64,000 nucleotides of DNA from positions 9,422 to 73,421 of the forward strand of contig JAFQZM010000020.1 of assembly GCA_017405875.1 (NCBI GenBank). The letters run 5' to 3'. The position numbers and the translations under genes are program-made. The stretch comes from a bacterium. GTDB taxonomy: Bacteria; UBP6; UBA1177. The notes under the pieces are model-generated. The model saw only the letters and a program-made list of their open reading frames with translations. It had not been told where the DNA came from and searched no databases. This document shows positions 782 through 61,969 of the stretch, piece by piece (position 1 is the first letter of the stretch; each line of letters starts with the position of its first letter).

Positions 782-1840
782 CTACCAGATAAGAGAACAA
801 GCCTCGACACCGAGTATTTCACGTGCATCGCCGCCTAATTCCGGAATATTATACGGACTGAAAAGTTCAGCTGAACCTTTGCTGAAGCTCAACTTTCCGG
901 ATGAACCCGTTTCTATAACGGCATTATCTATTTTAAAAGAGCCGATTCCGAATGCGTGATAGCATGAAAAATTAAATTTCGAATCGATCTCGCCGACAAT
1001 CAGTCTTGCCTCGCTTTCATCACCGACACCTACAACGTGATCGCCTTCAACCGCGGCATCGGTTTTGATTCTAAGCAGAACGACCGGATTTCCCATGCTC
1101 TGAGAAGAGGGACTATACGGAACCTGATAAACTTCAACGACCTTTCCGTCACGCTGGTCAACAGTAGTTCTGACAAATGAAATTATCGTTCCGCCGGGAG
1201 TGATTGGCTGCGAAGAAATTTTACCTGAAGCAAAACTTTCGTACACAAGCTGACTTTCAGAGGTCGGGAATGTATTGTTCAGAATAAAAGAAAAACTGCC
1301 TGCAAACTCGGCATTTCCGTAAGGTGCAGGAATAGTAAACTCGTATTCGAAAGCGGCTGACACATTGCACAGCTCGTCCCATTCTGCACAGTTTTCAGCA
1401 GAACATTCGGCAGTTTTGTCTTCGGAGCATTTTTCATCGAAGCACTCTCTCCAACGCCTGTAATAAAGCTGATCTTCCTCACTTCCCTTCACATAACAAT
1501 TGTTGACACAATCGGAATCACCATCGACACAACCTGTTGTGCAGGCAATAATTCCTTCACATGTCGACCAGAAATCCTGCACAGGCGAAGAATCGTCGTC
1601 TACATTCGAACCGTCGTTGTCTTCGTCATCAACAGTTTCGCTGCCATCGTCAGGCTGTTCAGCCGTATCAGTATCTGCCGAAGTATCCGAAGAATCTTTG
1701 TCGGGAACAGTATCCGCGCTGTCATCATCTCTACCCGAATCACCGGTATCACCGTATTTGTCATAATCGTTCCCGCCGTCGCCGCATCCGACAAAAAACA
1801 AAAGAACGGCAAACAGAATAAACAAGGAATTTTTTTTCAT
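782..1840 (-). CDS. hypothetical acidic Cys-rich lipoprotein
   Basis: Signal peptide plus lipobox (LLFFVGCGDG), a D/S-rich low-complexity segment, then a Cys-rich module (CEGIIACTTGCVDGDSDCVNNCY...). RBS GGAGGAACC. Confidence 0.55.
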   Translation of the reverse strand: MKKNSLFILFAVLLFFVGCGDGGNDYDKYGDTGDSGRDDDSADTVPDKDSSDTSADTDTAEQPDDGSETVDDEDNDGSNVDDDSSPVQDFWSTCEGIIACTTGCVDGDSDCVNNCYVKGSEEDQLYYRRWRECFDEKCSEDKTAECSAENCAEWDELCNVSAAFEYEFTIPAPYGNAEFAGSFSFILNNTFPTSESQLVYESFASGKISSQPITPGGTIISFVRTTVDQRDGKVVEVYQVPYSPSSQSMGNPVVLLRIKTDAAVEGDHVVGVGDESEARLIVGEIDSKFNFSCYHAFGIGSFKIDNAVIETGSSGKLSFSKGSAELFSPYNIPELGGDAREILGVEACSLIW

Positions 1841-2138: not shown

Positions 2139-3380
2139 CTAATCCCTTCTGAAAAGATCTCTTGTGTAGACTTTCGCTTCAACGTCGTCCAGAACCTTGT
2201 CGTAGCGGTTTGCGATGATAGCGTCACAGCTCTTTTTGAAGCGCTCGATATCGTTGACGACAAGAGAACCGAAAAATGTGGTTCCGTCAGCAAGCGTCGG
2301 CTCGTAAATTATAACCGTCGCACCTTTCGCCTTGATGCGTTTCATAACACCCTGAATCGAACTCTGGCGGAAATTGTCGCTGTTCGCCTTCATCGTGAGC
2401 CTGAAAACTCCTATCGTAATCGGACGCTCCTTTGAAGCGTTCCACATCGAAGAACCCGTGTAATATCCCGCCTTCGCAAGCACTCTGTCTGCGATAAAAT
2501 CCTTTCTCGTGCGGTTGCTGTCAACTATCGCCTGAATCAGGTTTTCAGGAACATCGGCAAAGTTAGCCAAAAGCTGTTTCGTATCTTTCGGAAGGCAGTA
2601 GCCGCCGTATCCGAACGAAGGATTGTTGTACTCATCGCCTATTCTCGGATCGAGACAAACCCCCTTGATGATATTCGCCGTGTCGAGCCCTTTCATCTCG
2701 GCATAAGTGTCAAGCTCGTTGAAGTAGCTGACACGCAGCGCAAGGTATGTATTTGCAAAAAGTTTGACAGCCTCGGCCTCGGTAAAATCCATGAAAAGCG
2801 TCGGAACATCTTTCTTTTCCGCTGCTTCCTGAAGAAGACGGGCAAAAGTTTCCGCTGCCATGCGCGTTTTTTCATCGCATCCGACGATTATCCTGCTCGG
2901 ATAGAGGTTGTCGTAGAGCGCCTTGGATTCGCGCAGAAATTCAGGGCTGAAAAGAATATTTTCGCAACCCGTTTTTTCACGGACATGCCGCGTAAAACCT
3001 ACCGGGATCGTCGATTTTATAACCATAAAAGCCGCAGGATTGACACTTCTGACAAGGTCAATGACCGCTTCGACCGCACTCGTATCGAAAAAGTTTTTCT
3101 GCGGATCGTAGTTCGTCGGCGCTGCAATGATTACGATATCGGCATCGGCATAAGCCGCCGCACCGTCAGTCGTCGCTTTGAGTTTCAAATTTTTCTCAGC
3201 CAAGTATTTTTCAATGTATTCATCCTGAATCGGTGACTTTTTCGCATTGATAAGCTCCACCTTCTCAGGAACGATATCGACCGCCGTTACATCATGATGC
3301 TGGGAAAGCAGCACCGCCAGCGACAAACCTACATAACCAGTGCCGGCAACCGCGATTTTTAGATTTTCAAAATTTCGCAT
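2139..3380 (-). CDS. nucleotide-sugar dehydrogenase, UDP-glucose/GDP-mannose dehydrogenase family (Ugd-like)
   Basis: N-terminal NAD-binding motif [11 protein letters not shown] and catalytic-Cys motif [10 protein letters not shown]. The start was chosen at MRNFEN, preceded by GGAGGA (the track ORF extends further upstream). Confidence 0.8.
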
Positions 3381-3477: not shown

Positions 3478-3505
3478 GTCTGTCCGGAAATGGTTGACCG
3501 TTATA
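3478..3505. repeat. 27-bp imperfect direct repeat, left copy (CTGtCCGGAAATGgTTGACCGTtATA)
   Basis: Matches 7076-7103 at 24 of 27 positions in the same orientation. Confidence 0.7.
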
Positions 3506-3573
3506 CTTCATTTTTATTTCGATGTCTCGATCAAAAACGGTGCCAGATAAAACGGCAGGAATCTGAGTTCTCC

Positions 3574-4857
3574 TTACCTGCCGGAATCCTTTTGGGAAAA
3601 AACAACCGATTCTTTCAGATTTTTGGAATATTTTTTCCCGAATTCCGTGATGGATTCATGCTTTCCTGTTCCTGAAGACTTGACTTCTATCGCGTTTACT
3701 TTTGCCCCTTCTGAAATCAGGAAATCGATCTCATAATAATGAGTACTCTGAGGTTTTGACCAAGTGTGATAAAACAGTTCGCGTCCGCTTGCCTCTATCA
3801 TCTGAGCCACCATATTTTCGTAAAGATATCCAAGGTTTGCAGGCAGTTTATCAGAAAGCAGCTTTTCGTAGATATCGTTTTCGGTGCTCGGTCTGTCAAT
3901 AAACATCAGCGTGACAAAAAGCCCTGTGTCGGCCAGATAAAGCTTAAAGTTGTCAAAATTTTTAGCGGAAGAAAGGCTTACTCTCGGATCCGTCGTATCA
4001 TAAGCCGGGATCACCGTTTTGGAATCGATCAAGTCATAAATGCGCTCCTCGTCTTTTGTTGCCTTGCGGTTGCCAGTCGCAAAAGAGACTGAATATTTTT
4101 TCACACCTCTCGCAAGCTGTGACGGGATCGATCTGTATATTGCCGAAAGTCTTCCGGAGTTGTCCAGCTTTTTAAAGTCATCTTCATAAAGTTTTATAAT
4201 ATTGCGCTTCACGGCGTCTATCTCCGAGAAATTTTTGCCTGAAATATAAGCATCCACAGCCTGCGGCATCCCGCCGACAGCCATATAAATACGCAGATCG
4301 CGCATGAGTTTTCTGTTTACAGCCTGTCCCAGTGCTTTTCCCGAGTCATAGACCTGACGCAAAAGTTCATAATTCACATTCTGTGCCGCCCAGGAAAATT
4401 CCTCAAAATCCATCGGTGTCACCTGAATCTTCATTTCTTCAGAAGGAATAAGAATATCCGACACATTTTTCTTGATCGATATCAGAGATCCCGTTTCAAG
4501 ATAATGGTATCTTCCGTCCTGCACCAGATATTTTATCGCCTGCCTCGCTTTTGGAAAAAGTTGCACTTCGTCAAATATCACAAGCGACTTGTGTTTGATC
4601 AGATCAACACCGGTCGTGCTCTGAAGACGCAGAAAGAAGAGATCCGGATCGCTTATATCATTGAAACATGCCAGCAAATTATCAGATGCTTTCGCAAAAT
4701 CTATCAAAACATAGCTTTTATACTCCTTTTTGGCGAATTGTTCCGCAATAGTCGACTTGCCGACACGCCTCGGACCTTCAAGAAGCACCGCATATCTGTC
4801 GGCATAATTTTTTTTCCAATCAAGCAGCTTTTCATAAGTTTTTCTTTTAAAATACAT
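3574..4857 (-). CDS. AAA+ ATPase of the DUF4143/COG1373 family with a PD-(D/E)xK-like C-terminal domain
   Basis: Walker A GPRRVGKST and Walker B LVIFDEVQ. The C-terminal segment YYEIDFLI...AIEVKSS resembles the E-x-D...E-x-K nuclease-fold signature. The start was set at ATG (MYFKRK) with GGAGG 5 nt upstream; the track start is a GTG 4 codons earlier. Confidence 0.75.
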   Translation of the reverse strand: MYFKRKTYEKLLDWKKNYADRYAVLLEGPRRVGKSTIAEQFAKKEYKSYVLIDFAKASDNLLACFNDISDPDLFFLRLQSTTGVDLIKHKSLVIFDEVQLFPKARQAIKYLVQDGRYHYLETGSLISIKKNVSDILIPSEEMKIQVTPMDFEEFSWAAQNVNYELLRQVYDSGKALGQAVNRKLMRDLRIYMAVGGMPQAVDAYISGKNFSEIDAVKRNIIKLYEDDFKKLDNSGRLSAIYRSIPSQLARGVKKYSVSFATGNRKATKDEERIYDLIDSKTVIPAYDTTDPRVSLSSAKNFDNFKLYLADTGLFVTLMFIDRPSTENDIYEKLLSDKLPANLGYLYENMVAQMIEASGRELFYHTWSKPQSTHYYEIDFLISEGAKVNAIEVKSSGTGKHESITEFGKKYSKNLKESVVFSQKDSGR

Positions 4858-4899
4858 CAGTTCCTCCACTCAAAAAGCGGCTCAGCATAGCACATCTTT

Positions 4900-4986
4900 G
4901 CATTTCTTCAAAACTTTTTTCATCGAAAAACCGCATTCCTTCAAAACTTTTTCAGTCAAAAGCCTGCATTCCTTCAAAACTTTTGG
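4900..4986. repeat. three 21-bp direct repeats GCATTyCTTCAAAACTTTT with 33-bp phasing
   Basis: Copies lie at 4900-4920, 4933-4953 and 4966-4986, which is 45-130 bp upstream of the ATPase start. They look like an operator or iteron array. Confidence 0.6.
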
Positions 4987-5090
4987 GTTCGCTGGAGGAT
5001 TTTTTTGTCCAAAACTGCGTCAGGTCTCCCCCGTAGAGATGTGCCGTGGTGCGTCTCCCGAGTTGGCTCTCGCAGAGAGACTGAGAGGTC

Positions 5091-5149
5091 CAGGCATGCG
5101 CCATTTTGTCGTAAGCCGCTTTGTCTTCAAGAAGTTCTTTGAAATTGAA
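5091..5149 (-). pseudogene. 3'-terminal fragment of a second wecB (UDP-GlcNAc 2-epimerase) gene
   Basis: It is about 87% identical at the nucleotide level to 7192-7251 of the intact wecB. Its translation NFKELLEDKAAYDKMAHA matches wecB NFKELLENQAAYDKMAHA. Homology stops abruptly on both sides. Confidence 0.55.
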
Positions 5150-5232
5150 AATAGTAATTTTGAGAGATTTTTACTGGTTTTTCTGTAACTCGCTCTTGTT
5201 TTCTTTGTCAGTCTAAGTATAATTCCCCGTTT

Positions 5233-5264
5233 TTGATGTTTCTCTATGTAAAACATGATAAAAA
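5233..5264 (+). promoter_or_regulatory. putative sigma70-type promoter of darTG (TTGATG, 17-nt spacer, TGaTAAAAT)
   Basis: A -35-like hexamer at 5233-5238 and an extended -10 at 5256-5264 lie about 45 nt upstream of the darT ATG. Confidence 0.35.
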
Positions 5265-5311
5265 TCGCTGCTTTATGGAATTTTTCAATTAAAAATTTTG
5301 GAGAATAAAAA

Positions 5312-5914
5312 ATGCCTATAAGGATTCAAGATGGCAAATTGTTATACCATGTAACTGCTGTTGAAAATTTGGAAAACATTTTCAAACATGGACTTCTTTC
5401 AAGAACAGATGCTATCTCGAAAAAATTATTAAAAGTTAATATTGCTGATCACGAAATCATCGAAAAAAGGAAGGAACTTGGAATCCTGCAATATGTCCCA
5501 TTCCATTTTTATGAAAAAACACCATTTACATGGACTATTTTTAACAACAATCCCGAAAAATCATTTTGCTGCATAACAATCCTCAGAGATTTCGCCAAGC
5601 AGCAAAATTTTAAAATTTGTACCGCCCATCCTTTGTCACAAAATCCCATTGCAGAAGTGTTGGATTATGAAGATGGCTTCCGTAAAATTAATTGGGAAAA
5701 TGCCGAAAAAAGAGATTATGATGATTCAGTAAGCAAAAATGCGTGTATGGCTGAATGTCTCGCTGTTTCGCCTGTAAAACCGGAAGATTTTTTTACAATT
5801 TATATAGCAGACAACAACACAAAGGATTATGTTGAATTTTTGGCGACAAATATATTGGGAAATTATAAATTCTATATCGATGTAAATCCGTCTATAAGCA
5901 AAGCAAGAATATGA
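5312..5914 (+). CDS. darT: DarT, DUF4433 DNA ADP-ribosyltransferase toxin
   Basis: N-terminal LYHVTAVENLENIFKHGLLS, VNIADHEIIEKRK and YVPFHFYEKTPF match DarT signature blocks. An AEcLAV motif carries the putative catalytic Glu. RBS GGAGAA precedes the ATG, and the stop overlaps the darG start (ATGA). Confidence 0.85.
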   Translation: MPIRIQDGKLLYHVTAVENLENIFKHGLLSRTDAISKKLLKVNIADHEIIEKRKELGILQYVPFHFYEKTPFTWTIFNNNPEKSFCCITILRDFAKQQNFKICTAHPLSQNPIAEVLDYEDGFRKINWENAEKRDYDDSVSKNACMAECLAVSPVKPEDFFTIYIADNNTKDYVEFLATNILGNYKFYIDVNPSISKARI

Positions 5915-6963
5915 TAAGATCTGAAACCGGCAACATATTAGATTCTTCCGCGCAGTGTCTTGTGAACACTGTAAACTGCGAAGGATTCATGGGAAAGGGA
6001 ATCGCATATCAATTCAAAGAAAGGTTCCCTGAAAACAACAAAGAATATGTGAAAGCTTGCAAAAACGGGAATCTAACTATCGGAAAGATCTTATTTTTTG
6101 AAGAAGATGGCAAAATCATTGCGAATTTCCCGACTAAAAACAAATGGCGTGAAAAATCACAATATTCTTACATTGACTCTGGCTTGGAAGCCTTGGAAAA
6201 AGGAATAACTGAAAGAAACATCCTATCGCTGGCGATTCCACCGTTAGGATGCGGCAATGGTGGATTGGACTGGAACATCGTAAAACAAAAAATCCTCGAC
6301 AGATTTAAAAATTCAAATGTCGATATAATAATCTATGAACCATCCAAGGTTTTTACCCCCAAACCGATTGTCCACAAAATGTCGGCATCTCATTTGATCT
6401 TGATGATGTTAAAAATCGGTCTTCACCCTATTGGCAAACTTCGATTGCAGAAAGCGGCCTATTTCTTGAACATATTCAGCGGCGACGATTACTTTAAGTT
6501 TGAAGAATACAAATTCGGTCCTTATGATCACGACATTGAGATTTTATCTCAACACATCAAAGATTTTCAAGAAATCTACGGCGTTGACACAGCCGCTGCT
6601 CAGAAAATTCTCTACAACAACATTGTGAGTGACAGCGTAAAAGAAACCGTTGAAAAGTTTACCCCCGCGATACACAAGGCAACTAATTTCGTAAACTCCA
6701 TCGAATCCAATCACGAGCTCGAGATAGCGGCAACAATAGTCTACATCATTAAAGACAATCCTCAATTTAAAGAAGATGAAATCGTTAATTACTTCCTCAA
6801 TGACTGGCCAAAGGAAGATCCGACGAAATTTTCCAAAGAAGAAATAAAGATCTCATTAACCAGACTGATAAAATCGAATATAATTATTCAAAATTTGTTC
6901 GGATACTTTGTTTCTGACGAGATACAAAACAAACCTGATTTATTGCCGACATATCAATTGTAG
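5911..6963 (+). CDS. darG: DarG antitoxin: N-terminal macrodomain plus a C-terminal Panacea/DUF4065-like domain
   Basis: Residues 1-150 closely resemble the DarG macrodomain (GNILDSSAQCLVNTVNCEGFMGKGIAYQFKERFPEN ... IPPLGCGNGGLDW). The C-terminal half carries KLRLQKAAYFLNIF...FEEYKFGPYDHDIE, which resembles DUF4065. It is translationally coupled to darT. Confidence 0.8.
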   Translation: MIRSETGNILDSSAQCLVNTVNCEGFMGKGIAYQFKERFPENNKEYVKACKNGNLTIGKILFFEEDGKIIANFPTKNKWREKSQYSYIDSGLEALEKGITERNILSLAIPPLGCGNGGLDWNIVKQKILDRFKNSNVDIIIYEPSKVFTPKPIVHKMSASHLILMMLKIGLHPIGKLRLQKAAYFLNIFSGDDYFKFEEYKFGPYDHDIEILSQHIKDFQEIYGVDTAAAQKILYNNIVSDSVKETVEKFTPAIHKATNFVNSIESNHELEIAATIVYIIKDNPQFKEDEIVNYFLNDWPKEDPTKFSKEEIKISLTRLIKSNIIIQNLFGYFVSDEIQNKPDLLPTYQL

Positions 6964-7075
6964 TTTACCATCTGTCCAGTTTTCCTTTTTCCACCGCACA
7001 AAACCCTCATTTCAAGATTCATTTTGAAAAATTTTCCGTTTATTTTTCAGAGGTCAAAAAGGTGAAGGCGTTTTA

Positions 7076-7103
7076 ACTGCCCGGAAATGATTGACCGTCA
7101 TAG
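7076..7103. repeat. 27-bp imperfect direct repeat, right copy (CTGcCCGGAAATGaTTGACCGTcATA)
   Basis: Partner of the 3478-3505 copy. It ends 17 nt downstream of the wecB stop codon. Confidence 0.7.
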
Positions 7104-7120: not shown

Positions 7121-8236
7121 TTACCCCATCCACGGTTCGTATGTTCCAAGTTCTAAAATATCGGCGATACGCTTGCAGGCGTGTCCGTCGCCGTATGGAT
7201 TGCAGGCATGCGCCATTTTGTCATATGCTGCCTGGTTTTCAAGAAGTTCCTTGAAGTTTCTGTAGATTACTTCTTCTTTAGTGCCGACAAGCCTCAGTGT
7301 TCCGGCATCGACTCCTTCAGGACGTTCGGTCGTATCGCGCATTACAAGAACGGGTCTGCCGTATGACGGGCACTCTTCCTGGATGCCGCCTGAATCGGTG
7401 AGACAGAGATGGCATCTTGCTTCGAAATTGTGGCAGTCAAACACTTCTATCGGCTCGATGATTCGGATCTGCGAGCAGTCACCGAGTTCTTCATCAGCCG
7501 CCTGACGGACTACCGGGTTCATGTGTATCGGATAGACTGCTTTGCATTCGGGATGTTCGTCAAGAACGCGCCTTATCGCGCGAAACATGTGATGCATCGG
7601 CTCTCCAAGGTTTTCACGCCTGTGTGCCGTGATGAATATCAGCTTTTTGTCGCCCACCCAGTCAAGAACGGGATGAGTGTAATCTTTTTTCACGGTGTGC
7701 TGCATTGCGTCGATCACGGTGTTTCCCGTAATATAGACTGTTGACGGATCCTTCCCTTCTTTGATGAGGTGTTCTGCCGCAAGCTGCGTCGGGGCAAAGT
7801 TGTATCTGCTGATGATGCCGACCGCCTGACGGTTGAACTCTTCGGGATAAGGGCTGTAGATGTTGTAGGTCCTGAGTCCCGCCTCGACGTGTCCCACCGG
7901 GATCTGCAGATAGAAACAGGCGAGTGCCGTGACGAAAGTGGTCGATGTGTCGCCGTGGACAAGAACGACATCAGGTTTAACTTCTTCAAGAACACCTTTT
8001 ATCCCGTTCAAAATATTGGTGGTGATATCGAAGAGAGTCTGTTTATCCTTCATTATCGAAAGGTCGTAGTCGGGAACTACACCGAAAGTCTCAAGGACCT
8101 GATCGAGCATCTGTCTGTGCTGTCCCGTGACGCAGACGATCGTTTGGATCCCTTTCCTCGTTTTCAACTCGTTGACGAGCGGACAAATCTTTATAGCTTC
8201 GGGCCTTGTGCCGAAAACAAGCATCACTTTTTTCAT
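7121..8236 (-). CDS. wecB: UDP-N-acetylglucosamine 2-epimerase (non-hydrolysing)
   Basis: Typical length, an MLVFGTRPEAIKICPLV N-terminus and conserved HVEAGLRT and DSGGIQEE blocks. The start was set at MKKVM with AGGAG upstream; the track ORF overlaps the wecC stop. Confidence 0.85.
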   Translation of the reverse strand: MKKVMLVFGTRPEAIKICPLVNELKTRKGIQTIVCVTGQHRQMLDQVLETFGVVPDYDLSIMKDKQTLFDITTNILNGIKGVLEEVKPDVVLVHGDTSTTFVTALACFYLQIPVGHVEAGLRTYNIYSPYPEEFNRQAVGIISRYNFAPTQLAAEHLIKEGKDPSTVYITGNTVIDAMQHTVKKDYTHPVLDWVGDKKLIFITAHRRENLGEPMHHMFRAIRRVLDEHPECKAVYPIHMNPVVRQAADEELGDCSQIRIIEPIEVFDCHNFEARCHLCLTDSGGIQEECPSYGRPVLVMRDTTERPEGVDAGTLRLVGTKEEVIYRNFKELLENQAAYDKMAHACNPYGDGHACKRIADILELGTYEPWMG

Positions 8237-8246
8237 AAGTAGGCTC

Positions 8247-9467
8247 CTAAATGTGGTAAACACCCGGAAGTTTGCAGATATTGTGGCAGTCGAGGACTAC
8301 TTTTCCCGAAAGTTTGTCCATGTTTTCTTTGATCTCGTTGTGTTTTACCATGATCACGACGAAATCAACGGCAGCAAGGAACTTGTTAAGGTCGTGGAAC
8401 TGATTCGGAACAACATCTTTCGTAATAAACGGATCATAAACCTTGAGCCCAGTAGCCAAGTGGCGCTCCTGACTTTCAAGAAGCTGCAGAGTCGGACTTT
8501 CGCGCATATCATCGACATTTTCTTTGTAAGTGAGGCCATACAATCCGACTCTGGTAATGTCGGTCATTCCCTTCTCTTTCATGATCTCGTATATCCTGTT
8601 GAGAACGAAATCGGGCATCGCGTCATTGGTGCGCATCGCTTCGTCAATAACTTTTGCTAATGATGGATAATCGCCTACCAGAAACCACGGATCGACTGAA
8701 ATACAGTGTCCGCCGACACCCGGACCCGGCTGAAGGATGTTTACTCTCGGGTGCATGTTGCAGATCCTGATTATCTCATAGACATTCATGTTGTCGTGGC
8801 GGCAGATCTTCGCGAGTTCGTTTGCAAATGCGATATTGACTGCACGGTAAGTGTTCTCAACAACTTTGGTCATTTCTGCTGTTTTGATGTCGGTAACGAC
8901 TATCTCGCCCTGACAGAATGAAGCGTAGATCTTTTTGATCTTCTCACCGATCTCTTTTTCATCTGCACCGATCGTGCGGTTGTTATGCAGAAGTTCATAG
9001 ACCATGTTTCCGGGGATGATACGCTCCGGAGCGTGAACAAGGTGGATATCCTTGCCGATAACAAAGCCGTTCGCCTCTATCACAGGACGGACGAATTTTT
9101 CGATAGTTCCCGGCGAAACCGTCGATTCAATAACGACCGTCGCACCTTTAGGGCAGACTTTCATAACGTCTTTGACAGCCGCAACGACATAGCACGCATC
9201 GACTTTCTTGCTGAATTTGTCGTAAGGAGTCGGGACTGAAACGATGTAAGTGTCAGTGACCTGATATTCGGTCGTGAACTTTATTCCAGCTTTCAGAGCA
9301 TCCTGAAAAAGCTCATCTAAACCGTCTTCCTTGAAAGTCGTTTTCCCTTCATTCAGAGTCGCCACGAGCTCTTTGTTGTAATCCGTGCCGATGACTTCAA
9401 CACCGTGTGATGACAGCATGAGTGCCGTCGGAAGTCCGATGTAACCAAGACCAATTACGTTTACCAT
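8247..9467 (-). CDS. wecC: UDP-N-acetyl-D-mannosamine dehydrogenase
   Basis: NAD-binding VNVIGLGYIGLPTA and catalytic Cys in GVGGHCISVDPWFL. RBS AGGAGG. It sits directly upstream of wecB, giving the classic UDP-ManNAcA pair. Confidence 0.85.
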   Translation of the reverse strand: MVNVIGLGYIGLPTALMLSSHGVEVIGTDYNKELVATLNEGKTTFKEDGLDELFQDALKAGIKFTTEYQVTDTYIVSVPTPYDKFSKKVDACYVVAAVKDVMKVCPKGATVVIESTVSPGTIEKFVRPVIEANGFVIGKDIHLVHAPERIIPGNMVYELLHNNRTIGADEKEIGEKIKKIYASFCQGEIVVTDIKTAEMTKVVENTYRAVNIAFANELAKICRHDNMNVYEIIRICNMHPRVNILQPGPGVGGHCISVDPWFLVGDYPSLAKVIDEAMRTNDAMPDFVLNRIYEIMKEKGMTDITRVGLYGLTYKENVDDMRESPTLQLLESQERHLATGLKVYDPFITKDVVPNQFHDLNKFLAAVDFVVIMVKHNEIKENMDKLSGKVVLDCHNICKLPGVYHI

Positions 9468-9547
9468 TGTTTACCTCCTAAGAATTTTTATAACACAAAT
9501 ATATGATTTGTTGGTTAAACATGTGTTCACCTAATTCCTGCTATTTA

Positions 9548-11353
9548 TTACATTGAAAGCATATATTTTATTTGTTTAAGTGTTATCGGATCTTTTACTT
9601 TCTGGAATTTAGAATTCCACTCACACTCTTTCACAAACAGTTCTTGGCACATAGCATTAATATCTTTCCCTTCAGCCACACCGTGAATAACATACGATAT
9701 GAAATCATCCACATACGAATGTAGATTTTCAATAAGTAACGACAGATATGACATATTTTCTCCATTGTGGATAATCATATTTCTATTTCGATAGATCCGC
9801 ATAATTTGCCACCTGACACGTTTTGCATGCTTTTCCACAAATGAATGAACCCTTTTCGGAGAGGACAACATTTTACCATAATAATTTATGCGTTCCTTCA
9901 ACAGAGGGAAGTCATCACATTTTGCAAGCATAGCTTTCCGCTCTTTTTCTTTTGCATCTAACAATGTAAATTCGCATATTGCTCTAACAATCTCAAACTC
10001 ATTCTCTTCAGAGCCCACGATATCAGTGTATAATTTTTCATTATATGTTTTGATATCATCCACCAACTGCTTAAAAAGAGAATAGATATACTTCTGCTTG
10101 AGCAACGGGACTAAATACATACAGACTTGCTGAATTCGATCTGTTGTATGCTTGTTGCTAATATCTAGAACCGATTCAAAGATAGCCCAACAATCTAAGA
10201 GTTGATTTTCTTCCGACAAACTATCCAAAGCATGAGAATGATACCTTACGGCTCCGATTAGCGGCTTATAGTTTCTATGACTTTTATCATCAATAATTTG
10301 TTTTATGGCTTCACCGGCAACCCTCATATTTTCTGACATCTGCTTATTTGAAGGAAGTTTTGTATGCTCTATCGCTTGCACATCTCGTACAACCTTATAT
10401 ATGTTATCGTCATCTAGAACCACACATTTTGCACTACGGATGCGGCTACTGTAAGTATGGTCATAAAATCGATAGATTGAAGTAACAAGATTTTCGATAG
10501 CATTGACGGCTTGATGCGCTGCAGCAAATGGATCAAGCCCATCCTCATCTACAATAAGAAATTTTTCGCCCTTTTTGTGATTAGAAAAACTCTTATCAAT
10601 CCTATTTTTTAATTCGTCAGGCAAATCGTCAATGCATTTAAAGTAAAGATTATTGAGTATGCTATAGTCAATCATTTTGTTAACATTCTCACTTTTTACT
10701 TTGAACACAACTTTATACTTTTTCTTAGTAAAATCGAATCGTGCAAAAAAACCATCTATTCTACATGGAGAAGCAACAACGGCTGACGGCTCCCAAAACA
10801 GATCATTCATTATCTCATAGATATATCTTAGGCTATAGCCGCTATTCTTCAATTCAGTCAACATGGATTTTGTTAGTCGGAATAGATTTTCCTGCTCATT
10901 ACAGTTGTTTTCCTTAATTATTTTGACTATTTGATCTCGCAATTGGAAATAATATTTATTATTACTAAAAAACACTTGATTTAAAGCATACACTGTCTTT
11001 TTCGAGTCATCACATCCGAATTCAGATACATTCGCACGCAACTCATATTTATCGTTTTGATATTTAAGAAAATAATCTAGAGGCTTGTAATTTTCTTGGA
11101 AAACCGGATCATTTTTCAACTCACAATGAAGCTCTTCCATAATAGGTTTTAAAGTTCCTTCATGGACTCCCTTATATTCAATTCCGTTAATTGCTGTTAT
11201 TGCATCAACGCAAAGATAGTGACTATTCAAAGTAGATATTCTGTTCGAAGGAATAGAATAATCAAAAAGCAACTCATTGACCAACTGTGAAAAGAAAAGC
11301 AGATTCTCACAACCCTTAATATCCGTCCATTTATCTAGATTGCCTCTTTTCAT
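9548..11353 (-). CDS. hypothetical 601-aa protein with a C-terminal RNxxxH (HEPN-like) motif
   Basis: Very AT-rich. It has no signal peptide or TM segments and no glycosyltransferase or P-loop motifs. The C-terminal alpha-helical region contains RIYRNRNMIIHNGE, which fits HEPN Rx4-6H with a polar residue after the Arg. A strong RBS GAGGGGGAGAG precedes the ATG. It is embedded in the polysaccharide operon. Confidence 0.5.
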   Translation of the reverse strand: MKRGNLDKWTDIKGCENLLFFSQLVNELLFDYSIPSNRISTLNSHYLCVDAITAINGIEYKGVHEGTLKPIMEELHCELKNDPVFQENYKPLDYFLKYQNDKYELRANVSEFGCDDSKKTVYALNQVFFSNNKYYFQLRDQIVKIIKENNCNEQENLFRLTKSMLTELKNSGYSLRYIYEIMNDLFWEPSAVVASPCRIDGFFARFDFTKKKYKVVFKVKSENVNKMIDYSILNNLYFKCIDDLPDELKNRIDKSFSNHKKGEKFLIVDEDGLDPFAAAHQAVNAIENLVTSIYRFYDHTYSSRIRSAKCVVLDDDNIYKVVRDVQAIEHTKLPSNKQMSENMRVAGEAIKQIIDDKSHRNYKPLIGAVRYHSHALDSLSEENQLLDCWAIFESVLDISNKHTTDRIQQVCMYLVPLLKQKYIYSLFKQLVDDIKTYNEKLYTDIVGSEENEFEIVRAICEFTLLDAKEKERKAMLAKCDDFPLLKERINYYGKMLSSPKRVHSFVEKHAKRVRWQIMRIYRNRNMIIHNGENMSYLSLLIENLHSYVDDFISYVIHGVAEGKDINAMCQELFVKECEWNSKFQKVKDPITLKQIKYMLSM

Positions 11354-30220: not shown

Positions 30221-32230
30221 TCATTCACCACTCACCTGCGGGTGATATGTACTTACCATTTCAGCCACAAGCTGCCTTATACCGGCATTGTTCGCGTATG
30301 CTTCATCCATCAGTTCATTCAGATCATCGAGAAATTTATCAGTATCGAATTTGATCGGGCATCCGATATGTATCTTTTCATTTTCAGTCTTTTTTGTTCC
30401 TTCTTCCGCCAGAAGCTTCTCTTCATAAAGTTTTTCGCCGGGACGAAGACCGGTGTAGTCGATCTTAATGTCGATATCGGGCTTGTAGCCTGACAAGCGG
30501 ATGAGGTTTCTTGCAAGAGTGTCGATTTTAACTGGAGAGCCCATATCGAGCACGAAAATCTCTCCCCCTTTTGCGTAAGTGCCAGCCAGCACGACAAGAC
30601 TTACAGCCTCAGGTATAGTCATGAAATAGCGGATGATGTCAGGATGAGTCACCGTGACGGGACCTCCCTTTTCGATCTGCTTTTTAAAGATCGGTATCAC
30701 CGAGCCGTTGCTTCCGAGCACATTTCCGAAACGCACCGCAACGAATTCAGTCCTGATATTGCGGAAGAATTCTGCATTTCGCGAAACATCGAGTTTTTCT
30801 TTACCGCTTTCTGTCTTTGTATAGTGGGTGAAAAGCTGCGGGATCTGAGCCGCCTCTCCAGCCTTTATCTTAGAATCGAAACTCTGGATTATCATTTCGC
30901 ACAGACGCTTGCTGGCACCCATGATGTTGGTCGGGTTTACAGCTTTGTCGGTGGAGATCAGCACAAAGCGTTTGCAGCCGTGGATCATAGCGGCATAAGC
31001 TGTTTTATAAGTGCCGATCGCATTGTTCTTGATTGCCTCGCATGGGCTGTCTTCCATGAGAGGAACATGCTTGTGCGCCGCAGCATGATATACTACATCA
31101 GGCTTGTAATCCTCAAACACCTGGAACATTTTTCTGGAGTCCCTGACAGAACCGATGAGCGTCACAAGATCAAGATCTGGATATTTTTCACGAAGCTCCA
31201 GTTGAATGTCATAGGCGTTATTTTCATAAATATCAAAAATTATCAGCGTTTTCGGGTTATGAAGCGCGATCTGTCTGCAAAGTTCAGAACCGATCGAACC
31301 GCCGCCGCCGGTAACAAGAACTGTTTTGCCGCTGATAAAATCAAAGACATCGTCTGTCTGCACTTTTATGGGTTCCCGCCCGAGCAGATCCTCGATCGAC
31401 ACTTTTCTCAGATTGGATACAGTAACATCACCGCTGACAAGCTGATACATTCCCGGAAGGTTCTTAAGCTCGCAACCGGTTTCCTGGCATATTGCAAGGA
31501 TATCCCTTCTTTGAGCAACTGTGGCTGAAGGCATAGCAATATAGATCTTTTTGACGCCGTATTTGACCACACTCGACATGATCATTTCCCTGCCGCCGAC
31601 AACGGGAATTCCCTCAATATAGCGACCCCATTTGTTGTCGTTGTCGTCTATGATGCAGACTATTTTGTCTTTGAGTCCGCTGCTGCTTTTGATGTCACGA
31701 ATGATCATCTGACCGGCGCTGCCGGCACCGATGAGCATAACATTGGTTCTTTCTGATGCCCGCCTTTCAAAACGGGGATCTATCCTGATGAAGTTGTAAA
31801 CTCTGTAGAGAAAACGTATTCCCAATGTAAAAATGAACTGAATAACAGGACCGATGATATAGTATGATATCGGCATCCTTTTTACGAATACCGTTATCGC
31901 AGCAATATGAAATACCGTTGTGACAGCAGTCGCGACAACCATCCTCAGCATTTCGCTGTAGCTTGCAAAACGCCAGATGACCTTGTAAAGCCTGAGCGAA
32001 TAAAAAACGATGACGCAGACGAATGCATAAAACGGCGCGAATACCTGCCAACTCATCAAAAAATCTTTATGAATGGAATTGAAACTACAGTCGAAACGAA
32101 GCCATAAAGCAAGGAAATACGCAAGCGACACCGCCACGACGTCATAGGCGACAAGCATCAGAGATATAACTATCCAGTGCTTCATCCCCAGCAATCTTCT
32201 TATCGGATTTATTTTCTGCAACAAACTCAT
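30221..32230 (-). CDS. membrane-anchored UDP-GlcNAc 4,6-dehydratase (PglF/CapD/WbpM family)
   Basis: Four N-terminal TM helices, then two Rossmann domains (TVLVTGGGGSIGSELCRQI) and a catalytic YxxxK region. Confidence 0.85.
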   Translation of the reverse strand: MSLLQKINPIRRLLGMKHWIVISLMLVAYDVVAVSLAYFLALWLRFDCSFNSIHKDFLMSWQVFAPFYAFVCVIVFYSLRLYKVIWRFASYSEMLRMVVATAVTTVFHIAAITVFVKRMPISYYIIGPVIQFIFTLGIRFLYRVYNFIRIDPRFERRASERTNVMLIGAGSAGQMIIRDIKSSSGLKDKIVCIIDDNDNKWGRYIEGIPVVGGREMIMSSVVKYGVKKIYIAMPSATVAQRRDILAICQETGCELKNLPGMYQLVSGDVTVSNLRKVSIEDLLGREPIKVQTDDVFDFISGKTVLVTGGGGSIGSELCRQIALHNPKTLIIFDIYENNAYDIQLELREKYPDLDLVTLIGSVRDSRKMFQVFEDYKPDVVYHAAAHKHVPLMEDSPCEAIKNNAIGTYKTAYAAMIHGCKRFVLISTDKAVNPTNIMGASKRLCEMIIQSFDSKIKAGEAAQIPQLFTHYTKTESGKEKLDVSRNAEFFRNIRTEFVAVRFGNVLGSNGSVIPIFKKQIEKGGPVTVTHPDIIRYFMTIPEAVSLVVLAGTYAKGGEIFVLDMGSPVKIDTLARNLIRLSGYKPDIDIKIDYTGLRPGEKLYEEKLLAEEGTKKTENEKIHIGCPIKFDTDKFLDDLNELMDEAYANNAGIRQLVAEMVSTYHPQVSGE

Positions 32231-32234
32231 TTAC

Positions 32235-33401
32235 CTATCCCTTTCTCCAAACCATTCTGTTGACTATGCCGGTATAGCTCTGGATGATCTTGACGACTTT
32301 GTCGGAGACGTTTTCATCGGTGTAGTCGGGAACTGGAACTGCGCCGCCGTTAGTCTCGTTTTTCACCATTTCTACTGCGGTATCAACTGCCTGCAGAAGC
32401 CCGAGAGTATCAATGCCTGAGAGGATGAAACACGCTTTGTCGAGCGCTTCTGGGCGTTCTGTTGAAGTTCTGATGCAGACTGCAGGGAAGGGACGACCGA
32501 CTGACGTGAAGAAGCTGCTTTCTTCCGGCAAGGTTCCTGAATCTGAGACAACGCAGAAAGCGTTCATCTGCAGACAGTTGTAGTCGTGGAAACCGAGCGG
32601 AGCGTGCTGAATGACTCGCGGATCAAGCTTAAACCCGCTTGCCTCCAGCCTTTTGCGGCTTCTCGGATGGCAGCTGTAAAGAATCGGCATATCGTATTTT
32701 TCAGCCATCGCGTTTATCGCGCTAAATAAGCTCGTAAAATTCTTTTCGGTATCGATATTCTCCTCTCTGTGAGCGGAGAGCAGGATATATTTCCCTTTTT
32801 TGAGTCCCAGTTTTTCGTGAATGTCTGAAGCTTCGATCTTTTTAAGATTTGAGTGAAGGACTTCAGCCATCGGAGAACCTGTGACATATGTGCGTTCCTT
32901 CGGCAGACCGCAGTCGGCAAGGTATCTTCTCGCGTGCTCTGAATAAGCCATGTTCACGTCTGAAATGATGTCGACGATGCGGCGGTTGGTCTCCTCTGGA
33001 AGACATTCGTCCTTGCAGCGGTTGCCGGCTTCCATGTGAAAGATCGGGATGTGGAGCCGTTTTGCGCCGATGACGGAAAGACAGCTGTTGGTGTCTCCAA
33101 GCACAAGGACTGCATCAGGCATGAGTTCAGTCATAAGCTCGTAGCTTTTTGCGATGATGTTCCCCATCGTCTGCCCTAAATTTTCACCTACTGCATCCAT
33201 GTAAACTTCGGGATCTTCAAGTTCAAGGTCGTGAAAAAAGACACCGTTCAAGTTGTAATCGTAGTTCTGTCCGGTGTGAGCCAGGATCGTATCGAAATAC
33301 TTTCTGCACTTTTTGATTACCGCGGCAAGGCGGATGATCTCAGGCCTAGTGCCTACGATTATCAGAAGTTTCAGTTTTCCGTTTTCTTTCCAGTTTGCCA
33401 T
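32235..33401 (-). CDS. fnlC: UDP-N-acetylglucosamine 2-epimerase, FnlC/Cap5G type
   Basis: Epimerase_2 fold (LLIIVGTRPEIIRLAAVI). It is the third gene of a CapE/CapF/CapG-like triad. Confidence 0.75.
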   Translation of the reverse strand: MANWKENGKLKLLIIVGTRPEIIRLAAVIKKCRKYFDTILAHTGQNYDYNLNGVFFHDLELEDPEVYMDAVGENLGQTMGNIIAKSYELMTELMPDAVLVLGDTNSCLSVIGAKRLHIPIFHMEAGNRCKDECLPEETNRRIVDIISDVNMAYSEHARRYLADCGLPKERTYVTGSPMAEVLHSNLKKIEASDIHEKLGLKKGKYILLSAHREENIDTEKNFTSLFSAINAMAEKYDMPILYSCHPRSRKRLEASGFKLDPRVIQHAPLGFHDYNCLQMNAFCVVSDSGTLPEESSFFTSVGRPFPAVCIRTSTERPEALDKACFILSGIDTLGLLQAVDTAVEMVKNETNGGAVPVPDYTDENVSDKVVKIIQSYTGIVNRMVWRKG

Positions 33402-33410
33402 TCTTATCTC

Positions 33411-34652
33411 CTATTTCACGACTTTTTCAAAAAAAGTATCGGGATGAGCAGGGTCAAAAGTCTCGTTCGCCCACATCAGCGTGACTAAATTCTCGGTTTT
33501 AGAAAGATTTATGATGTTGTGAGTGTAACCCGGAAGCATGTGGACTGCCTGAATCTTTTCTCCGCTCACTTCGAATTCGATCACTTCGTCGGTTCCGATT
33601 CTGCGTTCCTGAATGAGACCGTGACCGCTCACTACGATGAAAAATTCCCACTTCGTGTTGTGCCAGTGTTCCCCTTTCGTGATGCCGGGTCTGCTGATGT
33701 TGACAGAAAACTGTCCGTGGTCGAAAGTCTTCATTATTTCAGTAAAACTTCCTCTGTCATCGCAGTTCATCTTTAGATCAAACGCAACTTTTTCTTTCGG
33801 AAGATAGCTTAGATACATCGAATAGAGCTTTTTCTCGAAACTGTTTGGAGCAATTTCAGGCATAACAAGCGTTTGCGGCTGATCGTGGAACTTGTTCAGG
33901 CACTCAACGATATAGCCCAGAGTTGCTTTGTGAGTAACCGGCGCACCGCAGTATCTGCCAAATTCATTCCAGATCGGAGTAAGCCCGTCGAATTCAACAC
34001 CGTCAACAACTTCTCCCGCTGCCGGATAGTCGCATCTGTGCGGATGACCTTCCATCGCGTCAAGCATTTCATCGATCAGATCATCGATAAAAAGCATCTC
34101 AAGCACGACATTGGGATCATTCACCGTTATCGGAAGATCGTTTGCGATATTGTTGCAGAAAGTTCCGACCGCGCTGTTATAGTTTGGTCTCACCCACTTT
34201 CCGACGAGGTTCGGGAAGCGGTAAACAAAAACTTTTGCACCTGTTTCTTTGGCGTAATCGAAAAAAAGTTCTTCGCCCGCTTTCTTGCTGAGACCGTATT
34301 CCGAAGTGCCGAAACGCCCTGCAAGAGTCGCCTGAAGCGAGCTTGAAAGCATGACGGGAGCAAGGTTACCGTGCTTTTTGAGCGTATCTAACAAAGTCGA
34401 AGCGAATCCGAAATTTCCCTCTCTAAATTCTGCGGGGTCTTTCGGCCTGTTTACACCTGCCAGATTGAAGACAAAATCTGCTTTTTGACACCACTGATCA
34501 AGCTCTGATGCGGTATTCCCGAGGTCGTATTCAAAAATTTCACCTATTGAAAGAGCCGGTCTCGTTCTGTTTTTGCCGTCGCGTATATTTTTGAGATTTT
34601 CGACTAAATTGCGGCCTACGAAACCCGCCGCACCGGTAACAAGCACATTCAT
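33411..34652 (-). CDS. fnlB: bifunctional reductase/epimerase, FnlB/CapF type (N-terminal SDR plus C-terminal cupin)
   Basis: N-terminal VLVTGAAGFVGRNL Rossmann motif. The C-terminal cupin (GEHWHNTKWEFFIVVSGHGLI) matches the unusual CapF architecture. Confidence 0.75.
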   Translation of the reverse strand: MNVLVTGAAGFVGRNLVENLKNIRDGKNRTRPALSIGEIFEYDLGNTASELDQWCQKADFVFNLAGVNRPKDPAEFREGNFGFASTLLDTLKKHGNLAPVMLSSSLQATLAGRFGTSEYGLSKKAGEELFFDYAKETGAKVFVYRFPNLVGKWVRPNYNSAVGTFCNNIANDLPITVNDPNVVLEMLFIDDLIDEMLDAMEGHPHRCDYPAAGEVVDGVEFDGLTPIWNEFGRYCGAPVTHKATLGYIVECLNKFHDQPQTLVMPEIAPNSFEKKLYSMYLSYLPKEKVAFDLKMNCDDRGSFTEIMKTFDHGQFSVNISRPGITKGEHWHNTKWEFFIVVSGHGLIQERRIGTDEVIEFEVSGEKIQAVHMLPGYTHNIINLSKTENLVTLMWANETFDPAHPDTFFEKVVK

Positions 34653-34662
34653 TGAAGCCTCT

Positions 34663-35709: not shown

Positions 35710-35733
35710 GCAAAAACCTCCATAAGTTTTACC

Positions 35734-61144: not shown

Positions 61145-61173
61145 TCTATTCTCCAACTAAATACGCAAAAACA

Positions 61174-61947: not shown

Positions 61948-61969
61948 TTTCCACCTCACATTAAAACAA

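What the first reader, a model, noticed from the sequence alone, without database searches (positions are those of the whole stretch)
5091..5149. Orphan 59-bp fragment of a second wecB 3' end, 2 kb from the intact wecB
On the minus strand, 5091-5149 encodes NFKELLEDKAAYDKMAHA, versus NFKELLENQAAYDKMAHA near the C-terminus of the intact epimerase at 7121..8236. It is about 87% identical at the nucleotide level, including a 20-nt perfect run CAGGCATGCGCCATTTTGTC. Similarity ends abruptly on both sides. A diverged gene remnant of this kind is a footprint of past recombination or gene-cassette replacement at this locus. Together with the flanking repeats it suggests the island has swapped or been reassembled more than once.
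Basis: seen in the sequence. Interest (0 to 1): 0.5.

Follow-up and report, generated by a model that had tools for sequence, protein, structure and literature searches.

The report
Relic wecB fragment at defence-cassette hotspot
The 56-bp piece is a real, dead leftover of an older copy of the sugar-epimerase gene wecB, left between anti-phage gene cassettes that have been repeatedly inserted, swapped and lost at the end of a capsule gene cluster; this is an ordinary kind of recombination scar.

Summary
Window 5091-5146 matches 7203-7258 inside the intact wecB (7121-8236, minus strand) at 48/56 nt and 16/18 aa, with E=2.5e-9 against the whole window.

It is a wecB pseudogene relic. Six of the 8 differences are at third codon positions. 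In a related strain (L054) the same relic runs 46 codons to the natural wecB stop.

The relic lies in a variable defence island between the capsule operon and a conserved Ugd-like gene:
- Right edge: a 25-nt junction (5147-5171), then a low-GC DarTG cassette (5174-6967).
- Left edge (5090/5091): exactly the GACCTCTCAG end of a small hairpin-bearing mobile repeat. Next come remnant wecB-downstream spacer and a single-gene PDC-S01 ATPase cassette (3517-4984).

Conspecific strains lack DarTG and intact wecB. They carry two copies of the relic unit bracketing other defence cassettes. The window's copy is a mosaic of those two. Other strains have a crossover inside the intact wecB.

One part is not: the 33-nt "flanking repeats" belong to the ATPase cassette and are not scars.

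This is a known kind of feature and of modest interest.

The parts
5091..5146 (-). psi-wecB: 18-codon relic (codons 327-344 of a 371-aa wecB) of an older wecB allele.
   Evidence: 48/56 nt to 7203-7258. tblastn E=4e-5. Differences at codon positions 2/0/6. Longer versions of the same relic in L047 and L054.
5147..5171 (-). Junction segment J2: 25 nt, not wecB-like, fused to the 5' truncation point of the relic.
   Evidence: Identical in L047 copy 2, L053 and L054, where the neighbour is PDC-M12B rather than DarTG. Homology to those strains stops at 5171.
5037..5090 (-). X: a copy of a small interspersed hairpin element that starts GACCTCTCAG. Its terminus is the 3' breakpoint of the relic.
   Evidence: Aligns to the L054 spacer repeat 24/31, with 0/2000 shuffles as good. 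Family instances in L039, L040, L054, L055/57/59 and L062. 108-nt presence/absence between L039 and L040. Hairpin is 96% paired, with 3 of 5 pairs changed on both sides.
4985..5036 (-). Remnant of the spacer that followed the old wecB. It includes a degraded copy of the CATTTCCGGACAG motif (about 5000-5012).
   Evidence: Aligns to L054 6982-7030, score 78, with 0/1000 shuffles as good. Lies outside the PDC-S01 cassette homology, which ends at 4984.
3517..4984 (-). PDC-S01 single-gene cassette: AAA_14/DUF4143 ATPase (3574-4857) plus three 33-nt promoter-proximal repeats (4900-4998).
   Evidence: Pfam and PADLOC hits. About 75% nt identity to cassettes in unrelated contexts, repeats included. 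A nonsense change removes 22 aa relative to the 449-aa sister allele.
5174..6967 (+). DarTG toxin-antitoxin/defence cassette (DarT 5312-5914, DarG 5911-6963), low GC.
   Evidence: Pfam DarT and Macro, PADLOC DarT 8e-30 and DarG 1e-94. GC 31-39% against 45-52% in the flanks. 83% identical to L052 532-2331, with the same limits.
7121..8236 (-). Intact wecB (UDP-GlcNAc 2-epimerase). 7203-7258 is the counterpart of the relic.
   Evidence: Epimerase_2 at 1.2e-117. Variant strains are identical up to 7924, then carry 88 differences up to 9492.
7077..7103 (-). Copy E of the motif CTATGACGGTCAATCATTTCCGGGCAG, 18-44 nt after the wecB stop.
   Evidence: The continuation differs immediately after ...CAG in all three copies.
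3495..3521 (-). Copy R of the same motif (23/27 in the window, 24/27 in L047), just after the PDC-S01 cassette and upstream of the Ugd-like gene.
   Evidence: In L047 an exact 14-nt direct repeat CATTTCCGGACAGA brackets the cassette.
2139..3380 (-). Ugd-like nucleotide-sugar dehydrogenase: the conserved anchor on the core-genome side of the island.
   Evidence: Pfam. Present next to the 69-aa and 352-aa genes and pth in all syntenic loci.

Best explanation
The fragment is a non-functional relic (pseudogene fragment) of the 3' part of an older wecB allele. That allele once closed a capsule/polysaccharide operon at this position, just upstream of a spacer and the conserved Ugd-like gene.

The stretch between wecB and Ugd became a hotspot where self-contained defence modules are gained, exchanged and lost. 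Modules seen there are PDC-S01 ATPase, PDC-M12, an AbiL/AriA-like pair and DarTG.

Shown:
- The old gene was cut at its 5' side at codon 327, where a foreign junction (J2) now sits.
- At its 3' side it ends exactly at the terminus of a small mobile hairpin repeat (X).
- The resulting ~120-140-nt unit (relic + X) exists in two direct copies around a cassette in sister strains.
- The window's single copy combines the upstream junction of one copy with the downstream flank of the other.

Inferred:
- The unit has no function of its own. It has served as a patch of homology for RecA-type recombination (loop-out deletion, Campbell-type insertion or gene conversion).
- The present intact wecB, with DarTG behind it, arrived later with a replacement capsule segment.
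For: - Homology and significance.
- Mostly synonymous divergence from the intact allele (2/0/6 in the window; 5/1/17 over 46 codons, with 16 synonymous and 5 non-synonymous codons, in L054).
- L054 keeps the relic to the native stop codon (...MAHACNPYGDGHACKRIADILELGTYEPWVAKG*), followed by spacer and PDC-S01.
- L047, L048, L051, L053, L058 and L060 match the window to 5146 at about 96.5% (L049's contig ends at 5060). All six carry two unit copies flanking an AbiL-like ATPase + 232-aa cassette, with PDC-M12 upstream of copy 2 (L058 shares L047's gene order; not aligned to the full window). No intact wecB was found in the three tested (L047, L048, L051).
- Mosaic state of the window copy (sites 5093/5096 as in copy 1; site 5120 and 5147-5171 as in copy 2).
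- Cassette limits defined by independent homologues (DarTG 5174-6967; PDC-S01 3517-4984).
- X is a mobile repeat whose terminus coincides with the relic's breakpoint.
- Island content varies widely across syntenic loci (DarTG, AbiEii, SIR2/HerA, PDC-M12, AAA_21 pairs, SLFN).
- Crossover inside the intact wecB in other strains.
- The unit is not more conserved than its surroundings (about 96-98% against 96.5% for the backbone).
Against: - No strain with the presumed ancestral order (intact old wecB - spacer - Ugd) was found.
- No full-length donor allele with the relic's exact sequence was found. The closest sampled wecB is the window's own, at 84-88% nt.
- The order of events cannot be resolved from three informative SNPs. 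The internal deletion is shared by both copy types but absent in L054, which requires gene conversion or a more complex history.
- Three junctions share the same breakpoint after CATTTCCGGRCAG. This hints at some site preference that simple homologous recombination does not explain.
Confidence: 0.85

Rival explanations
1. The relic did not originate in this chromosome's lineage. It hitch-hiked in from a donor genome, attached to an incoming defence cassette: homology-facilitated recombination with a wecB 3' end as anchor, or a circular cassette carrying the fragment.
For: In L047 each cassette ends 10-50 nt before a wecB fragment, with two different truncation points, codon 321 (J1) and codon 327 (J2). 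This is as expected if cassette-wecB junctions were formed separately and then moved. wecB and Ugd are 85-95% identical in protein across non-syntenic organisms, so they make good anchors.
Against: The window's J2-type relic is contiguous with the spacer, PDC-S01 and Ugd in every strain, including the more distant L054. That favours a resident origin for this copy. Among the wecB alleles compared at nucleotide level (L066/L067 and L021-L023), none is closer to it than the resident wecB.
Confidence: 0.2
2. The two wecB-like stretches are attL/attR-type repeats. They would have been made when a DarTG-carrying integrative element inserted site-specifically into the 3' end of wecB, bringing a replacement 3' end.
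For: DarTG (low GC) lies between the two direct repeats, which share a 20-nt perfect core. Recurrent breakpoints after CATTTCCGGRCAG suggest site preference.
Against: - No integrase or transposase among the large ORFs tested in the window: Pfam on about 34 of them, leaving nine capsule-locus ORFs between 13159 and 26548 and five at 58120-58695 and 60425-63965 unscanned.
- The DarTG homology block ends at 5174 and 6967, not at the repeats.
- The relic with the same J2 junction exists in strains that have neither DarTG nor an intact wecB.
- The repeat is only 86% identical, with a synonymous-site pattern.
Confidence: 0.04
3. The unit (relic + X, possibly with the CATTTCCGGRCAG motif) is a functional site. 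It would be either a recombination site of an integron-like cassette-accretion system served by a recombinase encoded elsewhere, or a cis-regulatory RNA.
For: Units sit at cassette boundaries, in direct orientation, in several strains. X has a hairpin with compensatory changes and is mobile. Three junctions break at the same nucleotide.
Against: - No Rfam match.
- Folding energy is no better than shuffles, z = 0.76 and 0.05.
- No recombinase found among the ORFs tested.
- Cassettes are multi-gene, carry their own promoters and occur in either orientation.
- Unit copies are near-identical in sequence, unlike attC sites, and not unusually conserved.
- Other species' islands next to Ugd lack the unit.
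Confidence: 0.07
4. Chance similarity or an assembly chimera.
For: The stretch is short (56 nt).
Against: E=2.5e-9 in the window. Codon-position pattern of the differences. Longer homologous relics in relatives. The same arrangement in about 30 independent assemblies.
Confidence: 0.01

Closest known systems
Neisseria meningitidis capsule island Regions D/D' (intact galE1 and truncated remnant galE2)
   Same: A sugar-nucleotide epimerase gene is present as one intact copy plus a truncated duplicate remnant in the same capsule-locus neighbourhood. It is read as a footprint of horizontal acquisition or rearrangement of the island (abstract of PMC5349592, seen; nomenclature in PMC3647402).
   Different: Here the remnant is far shorter: 56 nt in the window, up to 144 nt in relatives. 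It is a diverged allele rather than part of a large duplicated region. It lies among defence cassettes, and in some strains it is duplicated while no intact copy is nearby.
Core defence hotspots flanked by conserved genes (e.g. cDHS of Pseudomonas aeruginosa, PMC10250203)
   Same: A fixed chromosomal position bounded by conserved genes (capsule operon end / Ugd-69aa-352aa-pth). It holds different anti-phage systems in different strains, with no mobility genes found among the ORFs tested.
   Different: The organism is an uncultured gut/rumen Clostridia-type bacterium. The hotspot sits inside the tail of a polysaccharide operon. Relic gene fragments and a small mobile repeat mark the cassette boundaries.
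Displaced gene 3' ends at attR of integrative elements (tRNA/tmRNA/gene-3'-end integration)
   Same: An intact gene, plus a short diverged copy of its 3' part in direct orientation beyond an inserted foreign segment.
   Different: No integrase. The repeat limits do not coincide with the limits of the inserted cassette. The relic predates DarTG and exists without an intact wecB in sister strains.
Integron cassette arrays (attC-bounded cassettes)
   Same: Serial cassettes separated by a recurring ~120-140-nt unit in direct orientation.
   Different: No IntI. The units are near-identical sequence copies derived from a gene fragment. The cassettes are multi-gene, with their own promoters and mixed orientation. 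No attC-like fold signal.

Membership tests
UDP-N-acetylglucosamine 2-epimerase (WecB/MnaA, Pfam PF02350) - as a gene | Sequence homology to the family | tested here: met
   16/18 aa and 48/56 nt to the intact gene. 46 codons to the stop in L054.
UDP-N-acetylglucosamine 2-epimerase (WecB/MnaA, Pfam PF02350) - as a gene | Complete ORF covering the ~347-residue Epimerase_2 domain | tested here: not met
   Only codons 327-344 remain. No further wecB-like sequence adjoins it. It is therefore a pseudogene fragment.
Pseudogene relic formed from a once-functional allele | Divergence concentrated at synonymous sites relative to a functional homologue | tested here: met
   Codon positions 2/0/6 (window) and 5/1/17 (L054); 16 synonymous against 5 non-synonymous codons.
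Site-specific integration scar (attL/attR) | Integrase/recombinase gene within or next to the inserted segment | tested here: not met
   The segment holds only DarT and DarG. Pfam found none among about 34 of the window's large ORFs. Nine capsule-locus ORFs between 13159 and 26548, and five at 58120-58695 and 60425-63965, were not scanned.
Site-specific integration scar (attL/attR) | Repeats coincide with the ends of the mobile segment; an empty site with a single core in relatives | tested here: not met
   DarTG homology ends at 5174 and 6967. The relic with the same junction is present without DarTG. No empty site was found.
Integron / attC cassette array | IntI-type tyrosine recombinase with attI | tested here: not met
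   None found among the window ORFs scanned or in the gene tables returned with the syntenic loci.
Integron / attC cassette array | Imperfect palindromic attC fold at each cassette boundary | tested here: inconclusive
   Whole-unit folding is no better than shuffles. X has one small conserved hairpin. R/L box motifs were not formally searched.
Core defence hotspot | Conserved flanking genes with variable defence-system content between strains | tested here: met
   Ugd/69aa/352aa/pth flank is conserved. Content varies: DarTG, PDC-S01, PDC-M12, AbiL-like, AbiEii, SIR2/HerA, SLFN.
DarTG toxin-antitoxin (neighbouring cassette) | DarT ADP-ribosyltransferase followed by a macrodomain DarG in one operon | tested here: met
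   Pfam PF14487 2e-20 and PF01661 1e-16. PADLOC DarT 8e-30 and DarG 1e-94. The two ORFs overlap, at 5911-5914. Activity was not tested.
MITE/REP-like interspersed repeat (element X) | Presence/absence polymorphism at an otherwise identical site, and dispersed copies | tested here: met
   108-nt insertion in L040 relative to L039 at the DegT leader. Copies in at least 5 unrelated loci.
MITE/REP-like interspersed repeat (element X) | Terminal inverted repeats and target-site duplication | tested here: inconclusive
   Only partial matches seen by eye at the L040 insertion (GCGGCGG...TTTTT on both sides). Genome-wide copy number could not be measured.

The most novel reading that the evidence does not exclude
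The relic-plus-X unit and the recurrent CATTTCCGGRCAG breakpoint would mark a dedicated cassette-accretion site at the tail of polysaccharide operons in gut/rumen Clostridia. In this reading, defence modules are captured and shed as unit-bounded cassettes, integron-like but without a local integrase, using RecA or a recombinase in trans. X would be an undescribed mobile hairpin element that seeds these rearrangements.
Probability: 0.1. Interest if true: 0.65.

Novelty: new member of a known kind. Interest (0 to 1): 0.3.

Why it matters
By itself the fragment is a neutral scar. Its value is as a marker. It shows that the tail of this capsule operon once ended in a different wecB allele. It also pins down, to the nucleotide, the boundaries of several defence cassettes.

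Together with the sister strains, it documents cassette gain or loss through a ~120-140-nt direct repeat in an uncultured gut bacterium. It adds an example of defence systems nesting inside a polysaccharide locus, where highly conserved sugar-nucleotide genes (wecB, Ugd) provide homology for exchange.

The side observations, a small mobile hairpin repeat and a shared breakpoint motif, are leads for anyone studying how defence hotspots are built in Clostridia.

Tried and rejected
- Donor search in genomes. A degenerate DNA pattern for EDKAAYDKMAHA in one genome per species hit only three distant wecB genes at 65-79% nt. These are not donors. The scan did not return the window's own species, so the representative is absent or lacks the relic.
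- Donor search in proteins. None of the top 120 wecB homologues has the relic's exact peptide or tail. Only P0003 (the best tail match) could be compared at nucleotide level. Its locus is not syntenic and is less similar to the relic than the resident wecB.
- Collection scans. Metagenome scans for the relic/X junction and for the spacer motif found nothing. One viral-contig scan of the relic/X junction also found nothing.
- Exact-protein look-ups of the window's ATPase, DarT, Ugd and wecB returned only the same strain population.
- Ugd homologues at 92-95% are in non-syntenic loci, so they are not informative about ancestry.
- PDC-S01 homologues at about 80% sit in unrelated contexts. They were useful only for defining the cassette limits.
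- RNA hypotheses. Rfam found nothing credible. Folding z-scores are about 0. No promoter or terminator consensus in 4700-5400.
- Claim that the intact wecB's downstream spacer is homologous to the unit's spacer. This was only marginal in Smith-Waterman tests (p about 0.003 against L047, not significant against the window or L054). I therefore rely only on the 27-nt motif and treat it as unresolved.
- J2 (5147-5171) as decayed wecB. A by-eye position-by-position comparison gave about 8/28 matches, so this was rejected.

Full report
**1. The observation**

Window 5091-5146 and 7203-7258 form a direct repeat with 48 of 56 bases identical. Searched against the whole window, the fragment hits the intact gene with E=2.5e-9, and the next best hit has E=0.036.

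On the minus strand 5146-5093 encodes NFKELLEDKAAYDKMAHA. Residues 327-344 of the intact 371-aa protein at 7121-8236 read NFKELLENQAAYDKMAHA. That protein matches Pfam Epimerase_2 at 1.2e-117.

tblastn finds no other remnant of this allele in the window. The second Epimerase_2 gene at 32235-33401 is a 29%-identical paralogue and not the source. About thirty independently assembled contigs carry the same arrangement at 99-100% identity, so it is not an assembly artefact.

**2. It is a relic of a once-functional wecB**

Six of the eight nucleotide differences are at third codon positions and none at second. Sister strains keep longer pieces of the same relic:
- L047 copy 1 retains 75 nt (EEVIYKNFKELLEDKAAYDKMAHA).
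- L054 retains 144 nt that run to the natural stop codon (...MAHACNPYGDGHACKRIADILELGTYEPWVAKG*).

Over those 46 codons the relic differs from the intact allele at 23 sites, distributed 5/1/17 over codon positions. Sixteen codons are changed synonymously and five non-synonymously. The two alleles therefore diverged while both were under purifying selection, and the fragment is not an in-situ decayed duplicate of the present gene. Among sampled sequences, the window's own wecB is still its closest relative at 84-88% nt.

**3. Anatomy around it (minus-strand order)**

| Window coordinates | Feature | Evidence |
|---|---|---|
| 9467-8247 | wecC-like dehydrogenase | |
| 8236-7121 | Intact wecB | |
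| 7120-6968 | About 150 nt of spacer | |
| 6967-5174 | Low-GC DarTG cassette, genes on the plus strand; limits set by an 83%-identical cassette in L052 | |
| 5171-5147 | 25-nt junction J2 | |
| 5146-5091 | The relic | |
| 5090-5037 | Element X | |
| 5036-4985 | Remnant spacer | |
| 4984-3517 | PDC-S01 cassette: AAA_14/DUF4143 ATPase with three 33-nt promoter-proximal repeats; limits set by ~75%-identical cassettes in unrelated genomes that carry the same triple repeat | |
| 3380-2139 | Ugd-like dehydrogenase, then the conserved 69-aa and 352-aa genes (pth lies beyond the window's left edge) | |

**4. Why similarity ends abruptly**

On the right, wecB homology stops at 5146. J2 shows no wecB similarity, and the same J2 is fused to the relic in L047 copy 2, L053 and L054, where the next gene is PDC-M12B rather than DarTG.

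On the left, the relic ends exactly where element X begins with GACCTCTCAG. X belongs to a small interspersed family:
- GACCTCTCAG, then a 3-5-bp hairpin whose stem changes by compensation (CTCTC/GAGAG, CAACC/GGTTG, GCAGC/GCTGC). The hairpin is 96% paired, 3 of 5 pairs are changed on both sides, and slid controls pair at 19-37%.
- Then GCCAGCTCCCC..GGGGAG.

In L054 two such copies follow the relic's stop codon. In another species a 108-nt insertion carrying X is present in L040 and absent from the identical site in L039. The loss of the relic's last 27 codons in the window is therefore tied to this mobile repeat. X has no Rfam match.

**5. Population evidence for turnover**

Conspecific strains L047, L048, L051 (GCA_017394775.1), L053 and L060 match the window at about 96.5% from the core flank up to position 5146, then diverge. 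L058 has the same gene order and unit positions as L047. L049's contig ends at 5060.
- They have no DarTG. No intact wecB was found in the three tested (L047, L048, L051).
- They carry two direct copies of the relic + X unit. Copy 1 abuts PDC-S01. Copy 2 lies about 2.5 kb further out.
- Between the copies is an AbiLi/AriA-like ATPase plus a 232-aa gene. Beyond copy 2 is PDC-M12A/B.

L054 has PDC-M12, one unit and PDC-S01, without the AbiL-like cassette.

The window's single unit has copy 2's junction J2 and copy 2's base at 5120. It has copy 1's bases at 5093 and 5096 and copy 1's downstream flank. That is the structure expected after recombination between the two repeats, or conversely before a Campbell-type insertion. 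L053 copy 1 shows a further exchanged site. With three informative sites the direction cannot be fixed.

Independently, strains L003, L006 and L017 are identical to the window up to 7924. L003 and L006 then differ at 88 and 87 positions up to 9492 and 9468, and L017 (whose contig ends at 8810) at 35. Beyond 9492, L003 carries KwaAB and a 1205-aa gene instead of capsule genes. This is a crossover inside the intact wecB.

Across more distant syntenic loci, the space next to Ugd holds DarTG, AbiEii, SIR2/HerA, AAA_21 pairs, SLFN-like genes or plain capsule genes.

**6. Mechanism**

The best reading is a neutral scar at a defence hotspot embedded in the tail of a polysaccharide operon.

Shown:
- Relic status.
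- The exact cassette limits.
- The duplicated unit.
- The mosaic copy.
- The crossover within wecB.

Inferred:
- The unit served merely as homology for RecA-type events.
- The present wecC-wecB-DarTG segment arrived as a later replacement.

One observation is not explained by this. The motif CTATRACGGTCAAYCATTTCCGGRCAG occurs after the intact wecB stop (7103-7077) and after PDC-S01 (3521-3495), with a degraded copy at about 5012-5000. A 14-nt exact repeat of it brackets PDC-S01 in L047. In all three places the sequence diverges right after ...CAG. This may be a duplicated target, part of a repeat element, or a preferred insertion point.

**7. Rivals**

- An attL/attR scar from a DarTG integrative element is rejected. 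There is no integrase among the ORFs tested. The DarTG homology limits do not coincide with the repeats. The relic with the same junction exists in strains lacking DarTG and intact wecB.
- A functional recombination site or RNA is unlikely but not excluded. Folding z is about 0, there is no Rfam match, and the unit is not unusually conserved.
- Import of the fragment with a cassette from another genome remains plausible for copy 1 of L047. It is less so for the window's copy, which is contiguous with the resident spacer in all strains.

**8. Comparison with known systems**

The closest analogue is the intact galE1 / truncated galE2 pair in Regions D/D' of the meningococcal capsule island (PMC5349592, PMC3647402).

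The setting matches core defence hotspots bounded by conserved genes (PMC10250203).

DarTG is a reversible DNA ADP-ribosylating toxin-antitoxin (PMC5179494). It is also reported to act in phage defence (abstracts of PMC11543638 and PMC11825919, seen).

Gene remnants as footprints of recombination in polysaccharide loci are well established (general knowledge).

**9. Verdict**

This is a new example of a known kind of feature and of modest interest. The small mobile hairpin repeat and the shared breakpoint motif are the only parts that might lead somewhere new.

Noticed in passing
window 5037-5090; L040 6579-6686; L039 6191-6238; L054 6883-6980; L055/L057/L059 ~19801; L062 ~16910: A small interspersed element: GACCTCTCAG + short hairpin with compensatory stem changes + GCCAGCTCCCC..GGGGAG. 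It shows presence/absence as a 108-nt insertion between the DegT promoter and RBS in two conspecific strains. No Rfam family matches. Only one copy in this 64-kb window.
   Followed up: partly
window 7077-7103, 3495-3521, ~5000-5012; L047 8363-8376 and 9888-9901: The motif CTATRACGGTCAAYCATTTCCGGRCAG recurs at three junctions (after wecB, after PDC-S01, and degraded before PDC-S01). Sequence diverges immediately after ...CAG each time. A 14-nt exact direct repeat brackets the PDC-S01 cassette in L047. Possibly a target duplication or a preferred insertion point.
   Followed up: partly
window 4900-4998: Three 33-nt direct repeats (core AAAGTTTTGAAGRAATGC on the minus strand) lie upstream of the AAA_14/DUF4143 ATPase. 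They are conserved as a triple repeat in ~75-80% related cassettes in unrelated genomes (L062, L065), with the last copy overlapping the likely promoter. Probably operator sites of this single-gene PDC-S01 module.
   Followed up: partly
window ~3574-3576: The PDC-S01 ATPase carries a G-to-T nonsense change (GAA to TAA) that removes the last 22 residues relative to the 449-aa allele of sister strains.
   Followed up: yes
window 7925-9492 versus L003/L006/L017: Variant strains are identical to the window up to 7924. L003 then shows 88 differences through wecB 5' and wecC and loses homology at 9492, where KwaA/KwaB and a 1205-aa gene replace the capsule genes. L006 and L017 show the same pattern as far as their contigs reach. 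The recombination breakpoint is inside the intact wecB.
   Followed up: yes
L047 3738-8206; L052, L054, L057, L061, L039-L041: The space just upstream of the conserved Ugd-like gene holds different defence/TA modules in related genomes: PDC-M12A/B, an AbiLi/AriA-like ATPase + 232-aa partner (no family hit), AbiEii, SIR2+HerA, SLFN/AlbA_2, Thoeris ThsA/ThsB, Fic, RelB, SocA/Panacea.
   Followed up: partly
window 2139-3380 and 7121-8236: The Ugd-like and wecB proteins have homologues at 85-95% identity in organisms with non-syntenic contexts. These sugar-nucleotide genes may move between lineages and act as recombination anchors.
   Followed up: no
window 30221-35739: The 5' end of the capsule locus encodes a Polysacc_synt_2 dehydratase, an epimerase with Polysacc_synt_C, and a second Epimerase_2 (32235-33401, 29% identical to wecB). 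From memory this resembles a FnlA/B/C- or CapE/F/G-type UDP-L-FucNAc set. No NusG-like regulator or X element lies in the leader at 35740-35880.
   Followed up: no
window 782-1840, 1849-2058, 9548-11353: Conserved ORFs of 352, 69 and 601 aa have no Pfam family. The 69-aa protein is identical across many strains and species of the clade (listed in 227 index blocks).
   Followed up: no
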